Shown here one piece after another: positions 6,936 through 63,300 of a stretch of DNA of 64,000 nucleotides (the stretch's first letter is position 1; each line of letters opens with the position of its first letter). The stretch covers positions 31,372,001-31,436,000 of the forward strand of contig OZ024756.1 of NCBI GenBank assembly GCA_964016885.1, read 5' to 3'. The notes under the pieces are model-generated. The model worked only from the letters and a program-made list of their open reading frames with translations, searched no databases and was not told the origin of the DNA. Source of the DNA: Eledone cirrhosa. Lineage: Eukaryota. Position numbers and translations under genes: made by a program.

Positions 6936-7303
6936 CATACATACATATGTTACAACTCTATGTGAATGTCTGTAATTTCGAGTTGATTTGTTTGCTATTG
7001 CTTTCTTCCTTATCTCTTGGTTCTATTGTTATTGAAATACGACTTAAGATGTTAAAGAATCGATGAGACGATCTTAGTAACAGAAGACTGGAGATCACCA
7101 GAGATATTGTCTTAGAGTATATTTATTTTGAACAATTCCAACGCAGCGTGGTTTGTGAAATTTTATACACGGAAACTGTGTAGGAGACAGCTGTATATAT
7201 ATATATAAATATATATCTATCTATCCGGGAGCTTCCAACCGACATGGTCGCATTCTTTAAGAGTATGTCAATATTTGTTTATAAAACTGATCTATATTAT
7301 ATT

Positions 7304-7357
7304 TTATCTGATGAAAGCGCACCATAATTTGCTTTGGTGTCCTTGAAATATGTATAA
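7304..7357 (+). ncRNA. degenerate type I hammerhead ribozyme motif
   Basis: CTGATGA (7308-7314), stem II AAGCGCACCA/TGGTGTCCTT, GAAA (7345), TATG, TA, with AATAAA at 7361. Stem I is weak. Confidence 0.55.
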
Positions 7358-7497
7358 TGAAATAAATATGGTTTTATAAATATAGTTTCCATTTGTTAAT
7401 ATATTGTATATTTACTCCAATTAATTTGTTGAGTGCTTTATATCAGTTATAAAAATATTTACTTGTTGTATCCCAACAAATTGAATATAACTTCTAC

Positions 7498-10982: not shown

Positions 10983-11067
10983 CTTACATTCATACATACA
11001 AATATAAATGCATACATACATTCAAACATATATACATAAGCAATGAATAACTTTAAAACTAAACAAA

Positions 11068-11112
<45 letters not shown>

Positions 11113-11262
11113 AAAGAAATAAGATTTCGCTTCAAGCTTTATACAATATGTATAGAAATTTCGTATTTCTAAAGAAATACGGTTTTAGGAAGCCGTAGCT
11201 ATGTAAACACCGGGGGGGGGGCTTACGCCTTCTGGTGGTGTCCAGCAGAAGCAAGGGGGACA

Positions 11263-11306
11263 ACCGTCTATGCATTTCAGGCTTAACTGGCCATCGTCAG
11301 GACAAT
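11263..11306 (-). ncRNA. type I hammerhead ribozyme motif
   Basis: Minus strand: ATTGTC CTGACGA TGGCCAGTTAAGCCT GAAA TGCA TA GACGGT. Stem I is 6 bp with two G-U pairs. Confidence 0.8.
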
Positions 11307-11539
11307 CCCTCCCCCTTTAGCTACGGCCTCCTAAAACCGTATTTCTTTAGAAATACGAAATTTCTATACGTATTGTATAAAGCTATGCTTGAAGCGAAAT
11401 CTTATTTCTTTTCTATTATGAGTTGAGCCAACTTATGCAGCTTCATATTCAAATGAGATTAATCACGTCTTTTGCACAGACGAGAAAACTATATATTCTC
11501 GCTTGTCTTCTAGTCCAGCAGTCGCCAACGTGTGGAGGG

Positions 11540-11583
11540 ACCGTCCTGACGATGGCCAGTCTAGCCTGAAATGCATAGACGGT
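11540..11583 (+). ncRNA. type I hammerhead ribozyme motif
   Basis: ACCGTC CTGACGA TGGCCAGTCTAGCCT GAAA TGCA TA GACGGT. Perfect 6-bp stem I, GGC/GCC stem II, palindromic ATGCAT stem III, AUA site. Distal pairing GTCCAGCAG/CTGCTGGAC extends stem I. Confidence 0.88.
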
Positions 11584-11702
11584 TGTCCCCCTCGCTTCTG
11601 CTGGACATCACCAGAGAGCGTTAGCCACCCCTCACCCCCCACCCCATCCCGGTGTTTACTTACCTACGGCTTCCTAAAACTGTATTTCTTTAGAAATACG
11701 AA

Positions 11703-11737
<35 letters not shown>

Positions 11738-11747
11738 TATGTATGTA

Positions 11748-11821
<74 letters not shown>

Positions 11822-13927: not shown

Positions 13928-14541
13928 TTGTGTCAGGTCACCAGTTGGTGCTACTGGTAACATGTATCCCAGTACAACCTGTCTCATGGTCGGGTCGTTG
14001 GCGACTAAACTGGCAACCCCACCAAGGTTTCTTGGTGAGGAGGGTGGCTTTGGACATCCTGCAGGACTAAAAACAAAACCTGTCAAAAGGCAAAGGGGCT
14101 CTTAAGAGTCAATAGCCATCCAAAATCACCGGGAGAGATGACCCCTTAGCCTTTGTCAAGGCAGAATTCTAGGAGAAGGAAAACTCTGATATAACACCTG
14201 CAACCCTGATGGTATCCAATGATGTTGAATTGTTCTTCTTTTTGGTAAATATCATCTTGGTTAAGAGAGTGGGACTGGCTTTGTGCAGTGCCTTTGCTCA
14301 CTATAAAAGTTTCACAGCACAGGCATTGCTTTATATCTGGAGATCTCTCTGCACTTGTCGTCACATGGTACCATGGGCCCAGCACTATGTGTCAATAATT
14401 GTCACAAGTGTAGTGTTTGTACCAGAGTTTTCAAGTCGCTGGCTGGACTAAAAAGTCACATTCGTTCAGCGCATTGGTAGGGGTTCTCCTACATGGATAT
14501 AAAGTAGTGGCCGTACTCGAAAACGAGTTGGCAGCCACCAT
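13928..14541 (+). mobile_element. RTE-derived bipartite non-autonomous retroposon, copy 1 (apparently full length)
   Basis: The 3' part encodes an RTE-like C-terminal C2H2 finger HKCSVCTRVFKSLAGLKSHIRSAHW* (14403-14480). It ends GTGGCCGTACTCGAAAACGAGTTGGCAGCCACCA followed by (TGTA)n. No RT sequence between the UTR-like 5' part and this end. Confidence 0.75.
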
Positions 14542-14558
14542 GTATGTATGTATATATG

Positions 14559-15183
14559 TTGACTCTTAAGAGCTGCTTTGACAGGTTTTGTTTTTAGTCC
14601 TGCAGGATGTCCAAAGTCACCCTCCTCACCAAGAAACTTGGTGGGGTTGCCAGTTTAGTCGCCAACGACCCGACAATGAGACAGGTTGTACTGGGATACA
14701 TGTTACCAGTAGCACCAACTGGTGACCTGACACAAAGCAGCTCTTAAGAGTCAATGGCTATCCAAAATCACCGGGAGAGATGACCCCTTAGCCTTTGTCA
14801 AGGCAGATTTCTAGGAGAAGGAAAACTCTGATATAACACCTGCAACTCTGATGGTATCCAATGATGTTGACTTGTTCTTCTTTTTGGTAAATATCATCTT
14901 GGTTAAGAGAGTGGGACTGGCTTTGTGCAGTGCCTTTGCTCACTATAAAAGCTTCACGGCACAGGCATTGCTTTATATCTGGAGATCTCTCTGCACTTGT
15001 CGTCACATGGTACCATGGGCCCAGCACTATGTGTCAATAATTGTCACAAGTGTAGTGTTTGTACCAGAGTTTTCAAGTCGCTGGCTGGACTAAAAAGTCA
15101 CACTCGTTCAGCGCATCGGTAGGGGTTCTCCTACATGGTTATAAAGTAGTGGCCGTACTCGAAAACGAGTTGACAGCCACCAT
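14559..15183 (+). mobile_element. RTE-derived retroposon, copy 2, with inverted 5' segment
   Basis: 14559-14735 is the reverse complement of ~13928-14111. 14736-15183 matches ~14095-14541 in direct orientation. Confidence 0.85.
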
Positions 15184-15420
15184 GTATATATGTATGTATG
15201 TATGTGTGCACGTATGTATGTATGTGTGCATGTATGTATGTATGCATGTATGTATGTATGTATGTATGTATGTATGTATGTGTGCATGTATGTATGTATG
15301 TGTTTATGTGTGCATGTATGTATGTATGTATGTATGTATGTATGTATGCATGTATGTATGTATGTATATATGTATGTATGTGTGCATGTATGTATGTATG
15401 TGTGCATGTATGTATGTATG

Positions 15421-15631: not shown

Positions 15632-16945
15632 GTTCGTTCTTCTGGTTTTATAATTTTATAAATTTTTAGCAATAGAGAGAGAGTCGGTTTCTAACATAGG
15701 AATTTACACATCAACTAGGTAGATATGTATGTATGTCTGCATGAATGTGTGTGTGTACAGGTATAGATGTTTTGTATGTGTAGATGTGGATGTTTTGAGT
15801 TATATGTGTGCATGTGTATATGCTTTGCATCTGTATATGTGTATATGCAGTTATTACATGCAAAATTTTTGGAATGTTTTACATATTTTTTACTGTTCCA
15901 TTAATGGATTGTACTTGTAATTTCCTAACTAGTTGTGTTCTTTCTGTTCCTGTGAAGCCTAGCTTCTCAAGATTTGTATTGAAGCAGTTACTAACATATC
16001 CCAGTGCCCCAATAATCACAGGCATAAATCTGAAGGTGTAATCAGTGTGGAATATCTGCAGATTTCTCATCAGTTCTGCATAAATGTTCTCCTTTTCATT
16101 AATCTTTGATATTATATTGGCATCTGCTGGGCAGCTAACTTCCACTACTGTGCATGCTTTCTTCTCCCTGTCCCATATCATAATATCTGGTCTGTTATGC
16201 CTGCAATTTATTGGGGGTTTTACTGGAACATTCCACCAGTACTCTTTCATATTATGTACATGGATGTCTTCCACATTGCGGTAGCTTTTAATGTGTTTAT
16301 TATCGGAGCTATCTTTTTTACGAACTGCATTGTACAGTGTTTTGGCCACTACATCATACCTCATAGGTAGATAGTACTGCGATGACATCTTTGGACAGCT
16401 GCTGATGACATGGGTGATATCCTCGATGTTAGTTCTGCAGAGTCTGCACTTGTTATCACATCTAGGTGTTTTGCCTGCATCTCTATCTCTTTTGTGAATC
16501 AGGTATTTCGTGCTAGTCTCCTGTTCCTGGATTGCAAAAGCGTATCCTTCAAAGTGGGAGCCAATATAGCGGTTGTTGGTTCAAGATAGACTACTGTCCT
16601 TATCTATATTACTCTCACTCTAGAGCTTCCTGGCAACATATCCATGCATGATTTTTTGCTGATAAGCATGCAGTTTTTCATCCATGGATTCACTGCGATA
16701 CTGCTGAGCGACATCCCTGGGTGTGAGTTTTTGATTATCACACAGGGAAAATCTCTCGAGGAGTTCCTTCCCAACTCTCATGATCTTATCTGTTTCATGC
16801 AGATAGACTTGCTCGAGAAACGGGCTCCTACGCTTCGAGGTTCGTAGATGATGTCGGGGAGATATGATGCGACATTCAAATGTTGTCTGGACTGCTTACG
16901 TTTCAAGTAAAGGCGGTCTATGTCACTGTTGATGTGGAAGTTATA
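15632..16945 (-). mobile_element. 5'-truncated R4/Dong-like non-LTR retrotransposon (RLE endonuclease), decayed
   Basis: Translation gives NFHINSDIDRLYLKRK ... MHGYVARK ... FEGYAFAIQEQ ... CRLCRTNIEDITHVISSC (CCHC) ... HNRPDIMIWD..KACTVVEVSCP ... EKENIY ... PVIIGALG (PD-(D/E)xK RLE). In-frame stops upstream of ORF 15879-16388. The 3' UTR runs into (CATA)n. Confidence 0.88.
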
Positions 16946-17893: not shown

Positions 17894-18514
17894 CATACAT
17901 ACATACATACATACATACATACATACATACATACATACATACATACATACATGCACACATACATACATACATACAATCACACACATACATACAATCATAC
18001 ATACATAAATACATACATAAATAGATGCATACAATCAAACATACATACATACATACATACATACATACATACATACATACATACATACATACATACATAC
18101 ATACATACATACATACATACATACATACATACATACATACATAGTATAATAAAACTACACAGCGGAGATAAATGATTTATCAATGAACGATTCTGTCAAA
18201 AGGATTGACGTGCTTCAGTTGTGGTATTCGGCTATTCTGTTACCGTGTTAATCTCTTAATCTCTTATTCTGCTACAGTTTCCCTCCTTCCTATAAAACGA
18301 GTGGAAAAACTCTTGCAAGTCATCGTTCTATTGTATTTTACTGTACTGCATCCTATTGTATATGTATTCTATTGTATCGCATAGTATTGTATATGCATTC
18401 TATTGTATTGTATAGTATAGTATTGTATTCTATTGTATTGTATTGTATTGTACTGAATTTTCGTATGCATGAAGCATTTTCATCTGTTGATGCTTCAATG
18501 TAAATCATTTAGTG

Positions 18515-18790
18515 TAGTGGATTGGACGAATTGGTGGAGCGTCGGACACCCTGCTTCGCGGCAGAGTGTTACACTCCTTTACGGTCCCAGTTAAAATCCT
18601 GCTGAGGTTAAAATTGTCTTTCACCCTTACGAGGTCGATAACATAAAGTACCAGTCATTCACTTGGGTTTATTTAATCGACTTTCCCCTCCCCAAAAGTT
18701 GTTGGTCTTGTGCCTGAATCAGAAACCATTATTATTATAACTTGAAAGGGAAGGGCGGTGAATTGGCAGTATCGGTAGAGCATCGGATAC
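18515..18790 (+). mobile_element. tRNA-derived SINE with Deu/Nin-like central domain (plus 5' fragment of a second copy)
   Basis: GTCTTTCACCCTTACGAGGTCGATAACATAAAGTACCAG core, 3' end TTGTGCCTGAATCAGAAACC(ATT)n. Confidence 0.8.
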
Positions 18791-20332: not shown

Positions 20333-20643
20333 TTTTCTTCTTTTTGGTAAATATCATCTTGGTTAAGTGAGTGGGACTGGCTTTGTGCAGTGCCTCTGCT
20401 CATTATAAAAGCTTCACGGCACAGGCATTGCTTTATATCTGGAGATCTCTCTGCACTTGTTGTCACATGGTACCATGGGCCCAGCACTATGTGTCAATAA
20501 TTGTCACAAGTGTAGTGTTTGTACCAGAGTTTTCAAGCCGCTGTTTGGACTAAAAGGTCACACTCGTTTAGCGCATCGGGAGGGGTTCTCCTACATGGAT
20601 ATAAAGTAGTGGCCGTACTCGAAAACGAGTTGGCATCCACCAT
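20333..20643 (+). mobile_element. RTE-derived retroposon, copy 3 (5'-truncated)
   Basis: Near-identical to 14231-14541. Confidence 0.9.
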
Positions 20644-20721
20644 ATATATATATATATACATATATAGTAATAATAATAAATGTGAAGTCTAACATATGAA
20701 GCGGGCTCGATAAATATATAT

Positions 20722-27935: not shown

Positions 27936-28347
27936 TTTCTGAATTTGTTTAGCAAGATTCTTTATCTGAAATCGTGTGTTGAAACCGATATTGTTATACT
28001 TTGGGAGGGTCATGTTGCCAATAAGAAACACACGCACCAGTTGCTTTCACTTCAATTTATTATAATAAATGTATAATAAGTTTATAAATTTATAAATTTC
28101 TGGTTGGTTGGTTCCACAACCAGATAGTTGTTTATATATTGTCATAGTTCTTTCCAGTCACTGAAGAGGTCACAGAGTGTGTGACGAAAGAACTATGACA
28201 ATATATAAACAACTATCTGGTTGTGGAACCAACCAACCAACCAGAAATTTATAAATTTATAAACTTATTATAAATTTATCATAATAAATTGAAGTGAAAG
28301 CAACTGGTGCGTGTGTTTCTTATTGGCAACATGACCCTCCAAAGTAT

Positions 28348-28354
<7 letters not shown>
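27933..28354. mobile_element. (TA)n-flanked head-to-head palindromic element with HHR at apex
   Basis: ~167-bp arms 27988-28154 / 28186-28354 with a 31-nt spacer. Same family as 63118-63300. Confidence 0.85.
28157..28199 (+). ncRNA. minimal type I hammerhead ribozyme motif
   Basis: GTCA CTGAAGA G GTCAC AGAGTGT GTGAC GAAA GAAC TA TGAC: stem I GTCA/TGAC, 5-bp stem II, CUA site. Confidence 0.82.
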
Positions 28355-28427
<73 letters not shown>

Positions 28428-38890: not shown

Positions 38891-38903
38891 TCTGCGATGG
38901 CTA

Positions 38904-39730
38904 ATAATTGTTTCTACTTTTGGCACAAGGCCAGCAATTACTCAGTGTATTACTGGTACTTTATTTTATCGACCCCGTAAGGATGAAAGGCAAAGTTAAC
39001 CTTGGCGGGATTTGAACTCAGAATGGAAAGGGCCGTAACTCTTTGCGTCAAAGCATGGCGTCCGACCCTCTACCGATACTGCCAATCCACCGCTGTTTCT
39101 ACTTTTGGCACAAGGCCAGCAATTATCCCAGTTCATTACTGGTACTTTATTTTATCGACTCCGTAAGGATGAAAGGCAAAGTTAACATCGGCGGGATTTG
39201 AAATCTGAACGTAAAGGGACGTAACTCTTTACGTCCTTTTACGTTCAGAGTTCAAATCCCGCCGAGGTTAACGTTGCCTTTCATCCTAACGGTGTCGATA
39301 AAATAAAGTACCAGTAATACACTGGGTTAGTAATGATAATAATGATAATTTCTGATTTAGGCACAAGGCCAACAATTTTAGGGGAGAGGAAAGTCGATTA
39401 AATCGACCCCACTGCATTACTGGTGCTTTATTTTATCGACCCCGTAATGACGAAAGGCAAAGTTAACCGCCACGGGATTTGAACTCAGACCGTAAAGGGG
39501 CCTAACTCTATGCTGCAAAGCATTGCGTCCGACCCCCTACGGATACTGCCAATAATAATAATAATGATTTCTAGTATAGGCACAAGGCCAGTAATTTAGG
39601 CGAGGAGAAAGTCGATTAAATCGACCCCTATGAAGGGCGAAGTTAACCTCGCCAGGATTTGAACTGAGACCGTAAAGGGCCATAATTCTCTGCTACAAAG
39701 CATGGTGTCCGACCCTCTACCGATAACAAT
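38904..39730 (-). mobile_element. array of Deu/Nin-like SINE copies (about 4 minus, 1 plus)
   Basis: Repeated CTGGTACTTTATTTTATCGACCCCGTAAGGATGAAAGGCAAAGTTAAC and GGATTTGAACTC (B box, minus). Confidence 0.9.
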
Positions 39731-46770: not shown

Positions 46771-47186
46771 AGACATTTTGTCATTGTCGTTTTGTTTGTT
46801 TGTTGTTTTTGTTGTCCTCCATATTAATGAAGTTTTTAAGAAATTATTAAAGGCAAACAAAAAGAAAGTAAATATCTTTAAATAGATTGAAAATGTTTCC
46901 TTTGAAATTGAAATTTCACATATTGCGTCTTCTTATAATAACGATGACATCATCATTATCATCATAAGGAAGAAGAAGAAGAAGAAGAAGAAGAAGAAGA
47001 AGAAGAAGAAGAAGAAGAAGAAGAAGAAGAAGAAGAAGAAGAAGAAGAAGAAGAAGAAGAAGAAGAAGAAGAAGAAGAAGAAGAAGAAGAAGACCAACAA
47101 CGACAACAACAACAACAGCAACAACAACAACAAGAAAAAGAAGAAATAAAAGAAAAACAATAACAACAACAATAATGATGATAATA

Positions 47187-47965
47187 ATGTTTCTACTTTT
47201 GGCACAAGGTCAGCAATTACCCCAGTGTATTACTGGTACTTTATTGTATCGACCCCCGTAAGGATGAAAGACAAAGTTAACCGGATTTGAACTCAGAACG
47301 TAAAGGGACATAACTCCATACTGCAAACCATGGCGTCTGACGCTCTTAACAGTTACCATGTTATGTCGCCGTAAATGTTGTTTGGGTAATATTTTGTTGC
47401 TTATGGTTGCTGTTGTTGTTAGTATTATTATTGTTGTTGATTGGCAGTATCGGTAGAGAGTCGGACGCCATGCTTTGACGCATAGAGTTACGGCCCTTGC
47501 CATTCTGAGTTCAAATCCTCTCGAGGTTAGCTTTGCCTTTCATCCTTACGGGGGGGTCGATAAAATAAAGTACCAGTAACGTACTGGGGCCGATTTAATC
47601 GACTTTCCCCTCGCCCCAAATTACTGGTCCTGTGCCTGGTGGATTGGCAGTATCGGTAGAGGGTCGGGCACCATGATTTGACGCATAGAGTTACGGCCCT
47701 TGCCATTCTGAGTTCAAATCCCGCCGAGGTTAACTTTTCCTTTCATCCTTACGGGGGGTCGATAAAATAATGGGCAGTATCGGTAGAGGGTCGGGCACCA
47801 TGATTTGACGCATAGAGTTACGGCCCTAGTCATTCTGAGTTCAAATCCCGCCGAGGTTAACTTTGCCTTTCATCCTTACAGGAGGGGGGGGGCGATAAAA
47901 TAAAGTACCAGTAATGTACTGGGATAATTGCTGGCCTTGTGCCAAAAGTAGAAACAATTATTATT
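47187..47965. mobile_element. Deu/Nin-like SINE cluster: one minus copy (47187-47345) and three tandem plus copies (47441-47965)
   Basis: GGCAGTATCGGTAGAG heads, GAGTTCAAATCC B box, GCCTTTCATCCTTACGGGG..GTCGATAAAATAAAGTACCAG core. Confidence 0.9.
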
Positions 47966-51208: not shown

Positions 51209-51415
51209 CCAGGCAGTATAACACGGAGTTACTGTAGGTTTACCCGAGTGAGCATTCGATGTTTAGGTTCACGTCTGTATCGAGATTTAGAGCTAGACAG
51301 AGTTAAAACGAGAACGAGTGGTTACTCCTTCATTACGTTTATTGGTTGCTGACGCGCGTTTCGCACGGCACCAACCAATAAACGTAATGAAGGAGTAACC
51401 AATCGTCCTAGTTTT
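51209..51415 (-). mobile_element. palindromic Penelope-like 3' end with half hammerhead at apex
   Basis: 44-bp arms 51305-51348 / 51372-51415. On minus the spacer reads GTGCCGTGC GAAA CGCGCG TC, then AATAAA. The 3' end runs into (TA)n at 51208. Confidence 0.7.
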
Positions 51416-51422
51416 ATTATAA

Positions 51423-51515
51423 AGTTAACTTTGCCTTTCATCCTTACGGGGTCGATAAAATAAAGTACCAGTAATGTACTGGGTATTTACTGGCCTTGTG
51501 CCAAAAGTAGAAACA

Positions 51516-51518
<3 letters not shown>
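51423..51518 (+). mobile_element. 5'-truncated Deu/Nin-like SINE
   Basis: Core and 3' end GCCAAAAGTAGAAACAATT. Confidence 0.85.
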
Positions 51519-54526: not shown

Positions 54527-54706
54527 GTGAAGTCGTTATAGTAGAGAGTCGGACGCCATGTTTTGCAACATAGAGTTATGTCCCTTTTCGTTTCTGAGTT
54601 CAAATCCGGCCGAGGTTAACTTTGCCTTTCATCCTTACGGGGTCTATAAGATAAAGTACCAGTAATGCACTGGGTTAATTGCTGGCCTTGTGCCAAAAAT
54701 AGAAAC
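54527..54706 (+). mobile_element. Deu/Nin-like SINE
   Basis: B box GAGTTCAAATCC, core and 3' end as in the other copies. Confidence 0.85.
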
Positions 54707-54714
54707 AGTTATAG

Positions 54715-55140
54715 TATCCGCTTCGTATATTTCCAATCTATTATATATCTGTGGTTTTTCTGTTTGATGATAACGGCCTCTTTGATTCTCCAATTACCCA
54801 CATTCCTTTCCGTCTTCCTCTATGATGACATCAATGTCTTGGCTGCGGCATCTGTGAGGATGGGTTTTTTTACAGAAGATCTCGTCATCATGTGCTCCTT
54901 GATCCGTATGTGCAACATCCGGACGGTACTTCCAATATACGAGAAACTACATTTTTTTATGGGCAACCTTATCGTTGTTGATGGGACAATGGCTCGTCTG
55001 ATGGTAGTTGTCGTTTTCTCATAGAAATGTGGCAGCTTTAGGTAGCATATGTTACCTCTAAGCACGTGTTTTTCTCGTTAATTTAAATTTCAGTGTTTGG
55101 TGAGAGAAATAGGGTAGCCGTACTGATATATTTGTCGCTA
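54715..55140 (-). pseudogene. Penelope-like element GIY-YIG endonuclease fragment
   Basis: ORF 54820-55065 contains CSFSYIGSTVRMLHIRIKEH (YIG.T.R.L..R..EH). Past the stop the frame reads WRIKEAVII (conserved Glu). Stops and frameshifts present. Confidence 0.78.
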
Positions 55141-55938: not shown

Positions 55939-56665
55939 GGGCGGTGGATTGGCAGTATCGGTAGAGGGTCGGACGCCATGCTTTGCGATCTAAGTTCAAA
56001 TCCCGCCGAGGTTAACTTTTCCTTTCATCGTTACGGAGTCGATACAATAAAGTACCAGTAATGTACTGAGTAATTGCTGGCCTTGTGCCTATACTAGAAA
56101 TCATTATTATTATTGGCGGTGGATTGGTAGTATAGGTATAGCGTCAGACGCCATGCTTTGCAGCGTAGAGTTACGGCCCTTTATGATCTGCGTTCAAATC
56201 CCGACGAGGTTAACTTTGCCTTCATCGTTACGGGTTCGATAACATAAAGTACCAGTAACATACTGGAGTCAAATTAGCCAACTTTCCCCTCCCCGCTAAA
56301 TTACTGACCTTGTGCCTATATTGGCAGTTTCGGTAGAGGGTCGGACGCCATGCTTTCCAGCATAGTTACGTCCCTTTACGATCTGAGTTCAAATCCCGCC
56401 GAGGTTGACTTTGCCTTTCATCCTTACGGGGTCGATAAAATAAAGTACCAGTAATGCACTGGCTAATTGCTGGCCTTGTGCCTAAAGTTGAAACCATTAT
56501 TATCCTTTAGGGCGGTGGGTTTGCAAAGTTGGTACCACGTCGGACACTATTGCCTTTTATCAACCCTGGGTCGAGAAAGTAAAGTACCAAGCAAACACTA
56601 ATATCGATTGAATTGATTTTCCTCTCAACAAATAGATGGCTTTGTGGTTAAATTAGATACTCTTA
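55939..56665 (+). mobile_element. tandem array of four Deu/Nin-like SINE copies
   Basis: Heads near 55940, 56115, 56321 and 56510, with (ATT)n tails. Confidence 0.9.
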
Positions 56666-63089: not shown

Positions 63090-63117
<28 letters not shown>

Positions 63118-63124
<7 letters not shown>

Positions 63125-63300
63125 ATGCTTTGGGAGGGTCATTTTGCCAATAAGAAACACACGCACCAGTTGCTTTCACTCCAATTTATTATAAATTAAA
63201 TTTATAAATTCTTAAATTTATAAATTTAATTAATAATAAATTGAAGTGAAACAACTGGTGCGTGTGTTTCTTATTGGCAACTAGACCCTCCCAAAGCATA
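63118..63300. mobile_element. palindromic copy of the 27933-28354 family (no HHR retained)
   Basis: ATGCTTTGGGAGGGTC...CACACGCACCAGTTG / CAACTGGTGCGTGTG...GACCCTCCCAAAGCAT, flanked by (TA)n. Confidence 0.85.

What the first reader, a model, noticed from the sequence alone, without database searches (positions are those of the whole stretch)
11111..11706. Two-hammerhead locus with a possible 343-nt retrozyme-like monomer
Seen: HHRs on both strands (11263-11306 minus, 11540-11583 plus). Stem I differences between them are G-U compatible, and stem I extends through GGGAC/GTCCC and GTCCAGCAG/CTGCTGGAC. The forward part starts ~80 nt downstream of the HHR position, runs 343 bp and re-enters the same sequence (direct repeat 11321/11664), as a circularly permuted unit would. 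Established: metazoan non-LTR retrozymes are tandem units of a few hundred nt with type I HHRs that yield circular RNAs. Alternative: the TATATA at ~11490 joins two separate insertions. The base of stem II is U-U rather than canonical G-C.
Basis: partly seen in the sequence, partly recalled or inferred. Interest (0 to 1): 0.8.

Follow-up and report, generated by a model that had tools for sequence, protein, structure and literature searches.

The report
Hammerhead retrozyme copy with Penelope-style insertion
This is one slightly decayed copy of a very common, roughly 320-340-base non-coding repeat that carries a hammerhead ribozyme motif and sits in a TA microsatellite in the head-to-head layout typical of Penelope-like retrotransposons, so it is likely a known kind of parasite that those elements copy from a repeated or circular RNA.

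Summary
There are two type I hammerhead motifs (C3 at 11546 on +, 11300 on -) and a 47-nt direct repeat at 343-nt spacing. Public DNA runs hold thousands of related contigs and reads. These bridge the TATATA at 11490, so it is internal to the unit and does not join two insertions. They also join the unit's end to its start, end mostly at 11410-11416 in TA runs, and show A10.1-U11.1 as the family norm; U.U is a minority allele shared by both arms. The locus reads as one insertion with a Penelope-type layout: an inverted 5'-truncated copy, a 1.1-unit partial tandem, a ~45-nt tail at one end and a (TA)n target. No RT or endonuclease frame was found. With one hammerhead per strand, this copy cannot release a monomer, so any circle would come from tandem relatives, of which family units run 307-343 nt. 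Cleavage, circles, arrays with two hammerheads and the autonomous partner were not tested. Verdict: new member of a known kind, a retrozyme-type non-autonomous Penelope-like element.

The parts
11071..11110 (.). (TA)n target, left flank
11111..11312 (-). Inverted, 5'-truncated copy (unit positions 218-343 then 1-95/97); its 3' end runs into (TA)n at the family's main 3' end
   Evidence: family 3' ends at 11410/11416-equivalent table 7
11111..11155 (-). About 45-nt extension ('tail') present at the left end only; the right end stops at unit position 47-57
   Evidence: tail concept from PMC3846280 and PMC8557442
11263..11306 (-). Type I hammerhead motif of the inverted copy (C3=11300, predicted cut 3' of 11269)
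11313..11316 (.). 4-nt head-to-head junction between the inverted and the forward copy
11317..11659 (+). One full 343-nt unit, 45% GC, longest ATG frame 44 codons when read as a circle
   Evidence: continuity in other copies
11476..11506 (+). Predicted hairpin (-7.9 kcal/mol) whose loop holds the TATATA; TATATATT at 11490 is followed at +30 by CAGT (A at 11520), a possible TATA box and initiator (untested)
11513..11606 (+). Predicted hairpin arm that carries the hammerhead; outer 9-bp helix 11513-21/11598-606
11540..11583 (+). Type I hammerhead motif (C3=11546; U10.1.U11.1; palindromic helix III; predicted cut after 11577; U1.7=11584; loop 2 ends in A11563)
11660..11706 (+). Start of a second unit (direct repeat of 11317-11363), forming the partial tandem; its 3' end runs into (TA)n
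11707..11734 (.). (TA)n target, right flank

Best explanation
The locus is one copy of a high-copy, non-coding repeat family with a 307-343-nt head-to-tail unit and a type I hammerhead motif, laid out as an inverted truncated copy plus a 1.1-unit partial tandem inside a TA microsatellite, and it was likely inserted in one event by the reverse transcriptase and GIY-YIG endonuclease of an autonomous Penelope-like element copying a likely circular unit RNA. Shown: unit, hammerhead motif, family abundance, head-to-tail joints, TA-bound 3' ends, inverted head, one-sided tail, no coding frame. Inferred: tandem relatives are transcribed; two hammerheads would pair through the palindromic helix III and cut; a host ligase would close the monomers; a Penelope-type enzyme would nick both strands of (TA)n and start reverse transcription at two internal sites (unit positions ~47-57 and ~95-100), running round past the cut site to give more-than-unit and inverted copies. 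This particular copy is predicted to be a dead end: it has one hammerhead per strand, and a read-through RNA would fold the two arms into one long duplex. The architecture part deserves about 0.85; the whole chain including a circular template about 0.55.
For: Family size: 3387 and 3468 contigs and 1539 and 1286 RAD reads lie on 11313-11706. Unit continuity: of 16 pieces shown (6973 more not shown), piece 14 (11450-11601, 85% identical, so another copy) bridges the TATATA with 40 and 106 letters. Piece 1 (11340-11525) runs from before the main 3' end through it (30 letters beyond). Sequence upstream of 11534 in 52 and 38 contigs is again the unit. Head-to-tail joints: 3 of 15 rows shown in table 5 (11597, 11623, 11626 back to 11318-21, up to 61-66 letters on the shorter side, in contigs and in both RAD runs), plus three more in table 5c. 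3' ends into TA at 11416 in 30 and 31 contigs; the left arm ends at the equivalent of 11411-13. Four opposite-strand joints at four other position pairs (table 5) show that inversions recur in the family. One event: both arms share U at 10.1 (family A in 73, 76, 86, 90% of depth) and A at 11658 (family G in 89-98%). Layout matches the typical Penelope insert with adjacent inverted pLTR and one-sided 31-bp tail (PMC3846280; PMC8557442); a purified PLE cuts AT-rich DNA on both strands and starts at two internal sites that bound the tail (PMC11167929). Both arms read through the cut site and keep the 5' half of the ribozyme, so the template was a circle or an uncut multimer. The unit folded as a circle: -84.9 kcal/mol, z -3.8, 0 of 200 shuffles as stable. 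The helix III palindrome self-duplex is -6.7 kcal/mol. A U.U stem II base with a short helix III cleaves and yields circles in axolotl HHR_Amex2 (PMC7229834).
Against: No record shown spans two same-strand hammerheads (longest listed piece 186 nt on the stretch), so true tandem arrays are unproven. No autonomous partner was found: 0 RT or GIY-YIG hits among 143 window frames, and no genome was available. In PMC11167929 uncut RNA was the dominant template and hammerhead mutants inserted normally, so a circle is not required. In the 2026 preprint only 1 of 9 predicted Xenopus retrozyme dimers cleaved in vitro. The forward hammerhead's best fold (-38.2) is not the active one (-34.3 with helix III open, -29.3 closed), and the left copy's fold is not better than shuffles (z -0.8). 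The tail is 40-50 nt against the published 30-40. The runs share at most 25% of sampled words with this copy, so organism A may be a relative and not the window's species. Only part of each table was displayed.
Confidence: 0.58

Rival explanations
1. The same non-autonomous Penelope-dependent element, but it moves through a linear, uncut more-than-unit transcript; the hammerhead is an inherited pLTR motif that cuts weakly or only with protein help, and no stable circle is made.
For: For Anolis PAc, uncut RNA is the dominant template, hammerhead mutants still insert, and cleavage needs protein (PMC11167929). 8 of 9 Xenopus dimers did not cleave. The shrimp PLE pLTR hammerhead has the same layout (A10.1-U11.1, 4-bp stem II, 6-nt palindromic helix III, A17; PMC4209133 Fig. 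S3), so the motif does not by itself imply circles. Every DNA feature found here fits this reading equally.
Against: The motif has the canonical proportions (6-bp helix I, 4-bp helix II, U1.7, loop 2 ending in A) and not the minimal PLE form. Related contigs that differ after the core still keep CUGA-N-GA (table 7, 11525 rows). The unit folds well as a circle. All three animal retrozyme families tested in PMC7229834 gave circles.
Confidence: 0.27
2. The locus is a pile of separate truncated pLTR ends of an autonomous Penelope-like element, each inserted into (TA)n, with the TATATA at 11490 as a target remnant between two of them.
For: Opposite-strand hammerheads 100-700 bp apart are described as truncated PLEs (PMC4209133). 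The forward start is closer to the left arm (4 differences in 91) than the forward end is (13 in 157). Most loose ends (561) were not displayed, so a minority running into an ORF could be hidden.
Against: Other copies bridge 11490 (pieces 14 and 1; 93 RAD reads at 11483 read on into the unit's next segment), and no displayed loose end shows a TA run there. The TATATA is the loop of a hairpin whose arms lie on both sides. The arms share two minority alleles.
Confidence: 0.07
3. A satellite-like repeat spread by DNA-level processes (unequal crossing-over, repair-associated inversion), with a vestigial hammerhead and no current retrotransposition.
For: The preprint proposes local tandem amplification by unequal crossover for retrozyme arrays. 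This copy differs from the family majority at 16 near-fixed sites among the 40 rows shown, so it is not very young.
Against: Dispersed copies end at defined unit positions in TA runs and show varied inversion joints, which is the footprint of target-primed reverse transcription. It is the only copy in 64 kb.
Confidence: 0.05

Closest known systems
Metazoan non-LTR retrozymes (Cervera & de la Pena 2020, PMC7229834; Li, Clavereau & Pollet 2026, bioRxiv 10.64898/2026.07.22.740005)
   Same: Non-coding unit of 150-450 nt, about 45% GC, one canonical-proportioned type I hammerhead per unit, head-to-tail organisation, short palindromic helix III. Axolotl HHR_Amex2 also has U.U at the stem II base. 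Solo 'monomer' copies are a recognised class.
   Different: Here the copy is 1.1 units plus an inverted arm in a TA target, with no two same-strand hammerheads. Arrays, cleavage and circles are not shown. The family sequence is not in Rfam.
Penelope-like element insertions (Arkhipova et al. 2013, PMC3846280; Craig et al. 2021, PMC8557442; Frangieh et al. 2024, PMC11167929)
   Same: Partial tandem forming a pseudo-LTR, adjacent head-to-head inverted 5'-truncated copy, tail at one end only, AT-rich or (TA)n target, hammerhead in the repeat, TATA-like motif with an initiator-like motif in the repeat (A. vaga Pen2a).
   Different: No RT or GIY-YIG frame; the whole unit is ~0.33 kb; the tail is 40-50 nt.
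Non-autonomous Chlamys elements such as MRC1 (Craig et al. 2021)
   Same: Non-coding PLE dependants that form pLTRs and head-to-tail multicopy insertions.
   Different: Green algal, target (CA)n or (C)n, and generally lack canonical hammerheads.
Marsupenaeus japonicus PLE hammerhead (PMC4209133 Fig. S3, AB686567)
   Same: Same layout as the family majority: no extra nucleotide after A9, A10.1-U11.1, 4-bp stem II, 6-nt palindromic helix III, A at position 17.
   Different: It lies at the 3' end of a partial coding PLE; the stem and loop sequences differ.

Membership tests
Non-LTR retrozyme | Type I hammerhead with conserved core and canonical helix sizes | tested here: met
   All core positions present; 6-bp helix I, 4-bp helix II in the family (A10.1-U11.1) and 3 bp plus U.U here; U1.7 and loop-2 A present
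Non-LTR retrozyme | Short (150-450 nt), low-GC, non-coding repeat unit joined head to tail | tested here: met
   343 nt here, 307-323 nt from five other joints, 45% GC, longest ATG frame 44 codons
Non-LTR retrozyme | [quoted passage not shown] | tested here: not met
   One hammerhead per strand. The locus is a monomer-type copy and is not filed as an active retrozyme.
Non-LTR retrozyme | Such arrays elsewhere in the genome | tested here: inconclusive
   Head-to-tail joints exist, but no displayed record spans two hammerheads; no genome held
Non-LTR retrozyme | Self-cleavage and accumulation of unit-length circular RNA | not testable with these tools
   Needs bench work or RNA reads; none could be laid
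Penelope-like element insertion | Partial tandem forming a pseudo-LTR | tested here: met
   47-nt direct repeat at 343-nt spacing
Penelope-like element insertion | Inverted 5'-truncated copy adjacent head to head | tested here: met
   11111-11312; four other opposite-strand joints in the family, orientation not given
Penelope-like element insertion | 30-40-bp tail at one end only | tested here: inconclusive
   A one-sided extension of 40-50 nt is present, but the right end is blurred by TA-like unit sequence and could have lost it by deletion
Penelope-like element insertion | AT-rich or microsatellite target | tested here: met
   (TA)n on both sides; family 3' ends run into TA
Penelope-like element insertion | Target site duplication | tested here: inconclusive
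   Cannot be read inside (TA)n
Autonomous Penelope-like element | ORF with RT and GIY-YIG endonuclease | tested here: not met
   No such frame in the unit or among 143 complex frames of the window
Minimal PLE hammerhead (min-HHR) | Extra nucleotide between 9 and 10.1, G10.1-C11.1, long helix II | tested here: not met
   No extra nucleotide; A/U10.1-U11.1; 4-bp helix II

The most novel reading that the evidence does not exclude
Each unit carries its own RNA polymerase II promoter (TATA at 11490, initiator at +30, 58 nt ahead of the cut site). The family, thousands of copies strong in what looks like an octopus genome, makes an abundant ~320-nt circular RNA. Its insertions preserve the two internal priming sites and strand-switch junctions of a Penelope enzyme working on that circle, which would be direct genomic proof that Penelope-like elements mobilise animal retrozymes.
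Probability: 0.2. Interest if true: 0.6.

Novelty: new member of a known kind. Interest (0 to 1): 0.36.

Why it matters
That Penelope-like elements move animal retrozymes has been proposed from shared ribozymes, co-occurrence and pLTR phylogeny (PMC7229834; the 2026 preprint, parts 1-3 of 5 read). A high-copy family whose individual insertions show the inverted head, one-sided tail and (TA)n targeting adds mechanistic footprints to that argument. It also gives a tractable set of ends for finding the autonomous partner. If the host is a cephalopod, no retrozyme from that group turned up in two searches. The class, the stem II variant and the insertion layout are each already described, so a specialist would find this a useful example and not a surprise.

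Tried and rejected
Rfam scans gave no hammerhead hit: whole window at gathering threshold, 0 hits; 11000-11800 at E<=10, 22 hits, none a hammerhead and most on TA runs. No whole genome is held. No RNA holder was listed among the 6 runs; this says nothing on expression. Pattern scans found 0 matches in viral contigs and metagenome contigs. Pfam on 143 complex frames found no RT or GIY-YIG, only C2H2 fingers at 14307 and 14949 and one sub-threshold hit. Pile-ups of read ends at 11359/11362 in run X5 were rejected as a biological end because they coincide with an AATT site, a likely restriction end in a RAD library. Summed contig depth was not used as a copy number. I rejected the idea that the two hammerheads act together: they are on opposite strands and would anneal to each other in a read-through RNA (-323.9 kcal/mol fold). 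A viroid-like both-polarity ribozyme pair was rejected because the minus-strand motif is simply the inverted copy of the same sequence. Earlier-scan look-ups by sequence and by place were empty. A pair count on the two-sequence alignment was not obtained and would carry little information. The supplement of PMC7229834 could not be read; its Fig. S6 lists more invertebrate retrozymes and may hold a related family. The preprint's supplements were not seen.

Full report
Observation. The sequence at 11111-11706 is flanked on both sides by (TA)n. A descriptor for type I hammerheads found 3 hits in the 64-kb window: C3 at 11546 (+), C3 at 11300 (-) and an unrelated motif at 7308. 200 block-shuffled windows gave 0.02 hits on average and none of 200 had a hit with 6 or more stem I pairs and a short helix III. 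All core nucleotides are present, the predicted cut is after 11577, helix III is the palindrome AUGCAU, and positions 10.1 and 11.1 are both U. Rfam does not detect either motif.

Anatomy. Number the unit u1-u343 from 11317. The forward part is u1-343 followed by u1-47. The left 200 nt are an inverted copy that starts at u218, crosses the u343/u1 junction and ends at u95-97. Both 3' ends point outward into TA. The left arm differs from the forward end at 13 of 157 aligned positions plus a 16-nt gap in a C-run, and from the forward start at 4 of 91 plus a 5-nt gap; the direct repeats differ at 3 of 47. The unit is 45% GC, its longest ATG frame is 44 codons, and as a circle it folds to -84.9 kcal/mol, better than all 200 dinucleotide shuffles (z -3.8). 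There is no other copy in the window and no RT or GIY-YIG hit among 143 complex frames.

Other copies. No genome was held. Six coded runs were listed, none on record as RNA, the best holding 25% of the sampled words. I laid four of the six on 11313-11706 at 80% likeness: two contig sets from one sample and two RAD read sets from another study. 3387 and 3468 contigs and 1539 and 1286 reads were laid, with depth in all 29 bins, so this is a high-copy family in organism A, which may be the window's species or a relative. The tool displayed only part of each table (40 substitution rows with 88 hidden, 15 joints with 30 hidden, 24 loose ends with 561 hidden, 16 pieces with 6973 hidden), and what follows rests on the displayed rows.

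The TATATA is internal. Piece 14 (11450-11601, 22 other letters in 151) bridges it with 40 and 106 letters; piece 1 (11340-11525) passes through both the main 3' end and the TATATA with 30 letters beyond; pieces 5, 6 and 15 cross it with fewer than 31 letters on the left. 93 RAD reads leaving the alignment at 11483 read on into the unit's next segment. Upstream of 11534, 52 and 38 contigs carry a variant of the unit itself, not new sequence. The TATATA is also the loop of a hairpin with arms on both sides (11476-11506).

The unit closes on itself. Three of the 15 displayed joints go from 11597, 11623 and 11626 back to 11318-11321, with up to 61-66 letters on the shorter side, in contigs and in both RAD runs; table 5c adds 11603, 11613 and 11630. 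Five of these imply units of 307, 308, 316, 321 and 323 nt, so 343 is this copy's length. No displayed record spans two hammerheads, so full arrays are not proven.

Ends and inversions. Loose ends run into TA at 11416 in 30 and 31 contigs, and RAD reads leave at 11410 and 11416, matching the left arm's end. Four displayed joints change strand, each at its own position pair and each in one contig per run; their orientation is not given. The read-end pile-up at 11359/11362 sits on an AATT site and is treated as a restriction end.

One event. At 11553 the family has A in 73%, 76%, 86% and 90% of depth, giving A10.1-U11.1; both arms here have U. At 11658 the family has G in 89-98%; both arms have A. 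Sharing two minority alleles points to one source lineage and fits a single insertion followed by decay. The forward part differs from the X1 majority (90% or more) at 16 of the 40 displayed sites.

Comparison with what is known. The typical Penelope insert has two direct pLTRs, an adjacent head-to-head inverted pLTR and a 31-bp tail at one end, with a TATA and initiator-like motif in the pLTR (PMC3846280, passages). PMC8557442 (passages) describes the same layout, (TA)n targeting by Naiads, and non-autonomous Chlamys elements with head-to-tail copies. PMC11167929 (parts 1-2 of 4) shows that a purified PLE cuts AT-rich DNA on both strands and starts reverse transcription at two internal sites that bound the tail, using mainly uncut RNA. 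PMC4209133 (parts 1-2 of 4 and supplement parts 1-2 of 3) reports opposite-strand hammerhead pairs 100-700 bp apart, proposes circular templates, and lists a shrimp PLE hammerhead with the same layout as this family. PMC7229834 (parts 1-4 of 6; supplement unreadable) defines non-LTR retrozymes, shows circles in coral, mussel and axolotl, and describes an active axolotl motif with U.U at the stem II base. The 2026 preprint (parts 1-3 of 5) argues that retrozymes are non-autonomous PLE derivatives, recognises monomer copies, and found cleavage in 1 of 9 dimers. PMC11875169 (passages) covers the U1.7 contact with the last A of loop 2, both present here. PMC5680766, PMC3124438 and PMC13282606 were seen as passages and do not describe this family in those passages; the last has no mention of ribozymes.

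Mechanism. Shown: the unit, the motif, the family, the joints, the ends. Inferred: tandem relatives are transcribed; two hammerheads pair through the palindrome (duplex -6.7 kcal/mol) and cut; a host ligase closes the monomer; a Penelope-type RT-endonuclease nicks both strands of (TA)n and primes at two internal sites, here u47-57 and u95-97. Both arms keep the 5' half of the ribozyme upstream of the cut site, which requires a circular or uncut template and does not tell the two apart. This copy cannot release a monomer, having one motif per strand. A read-through RNA would fold the arms into one long duplex (-323.9 kcal/mol), and the isolated forward motif prefers an inactive fold by 4-9 kcal/mol.

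A lead. TATATATT at 11490 is followed at +30 by CAGT, the spacing of a TATA box and initiator (spacing recalled). 18 of 5000 dinucleotide shuffles of the unit show such a pair; the motif was chosen after seeing the sequence, and I did not measure its conservation in the family. A start at 11520 would lie 58 nt before the cut site.

Host. An abundant repeat at 47440-47963 and the microsatellite load look like octopus to me; this is recalled and untested, and the protein look-alike search gave only eukaryote clusters. Searches for 'octopus' with 'hammerhead ribozyme' and 'cephalopod' with 'retrozyme' listed no description of such a family; the library lacks most subscription papers and Repbase could not be searched.

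Earlier notes of this scan describe similar Penelope-type layouts in other animals. They are unchecked AI notes; one pointed me to PMC3846280, which I then read.

Verdict. A real feature and a new member of a known kind: a retrozyme-type, non-autonomous Penelope-like family, seen here as one decayed monomer-type insertion. Interest 0.36.

Noticed in passing
window 7300-7364 (+): A second, unrelated type I hammerhead motif (C3=7308) with a long, bulged stem II, A10.1-U11.1 and A17, in a 570-nt island between TA arrays; no recognisable ORF in the flanking translation. Likely a remnant of another Penelope-type family.
   Followed up: partly
window 13934-15201; related copy 20335-20658: Another inverted-plus-tandem structure (179-nt inverted part, 642-nt spacing, 97% identical) between (ATGT)n runs; each repeat ends a short frame with a C2H2 zinc finger, as in the 3' end of some LINEs (recalled). 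No hammerhead found by my descriptor.
   Followed up: no
window 15882-16580 (-): 233-codon open frame resembling the C-terminal part of a non-LTR retrotransposon protein; Atlas look-alikes are eukaryotic clusters, some with zf-RVT on 11-25% of members.
   Followed up: partly
window 38899-39725, 47180-47963, 54541-54719, 55940-56521, 51304-51518, 18509-18787: An abundant short repeat family in tandem and inverted clusters; it resembles an octopus SINE (recalled, untested).
   Followed up: no
table 7, place 11525: 28 and 21 contigs match the unit up to 11525 and then carry a hammerhead core with a different position 7 and a different stem II start: a sister subfamily with the core kept.
   Followed up: no
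table 7, place 11370 (runs X4, X5): 106 reads in each run join the unit to a GC-rich hairpin-like end that resembles a Helitron 3' end (recalled), probably one locus.
   Followed up: no
window 27988-28355: A 368-nt near-perfect palindrome (92%), with related sequence at 63117-63300.
   Followed up: no
window 11338-11357 and 11162-11181: A near-palindromic 20-nt stem-loop early in the unit (u22-41), just before the right-hand 3' end; a candidate recognition site for priming.
   Followed up: no
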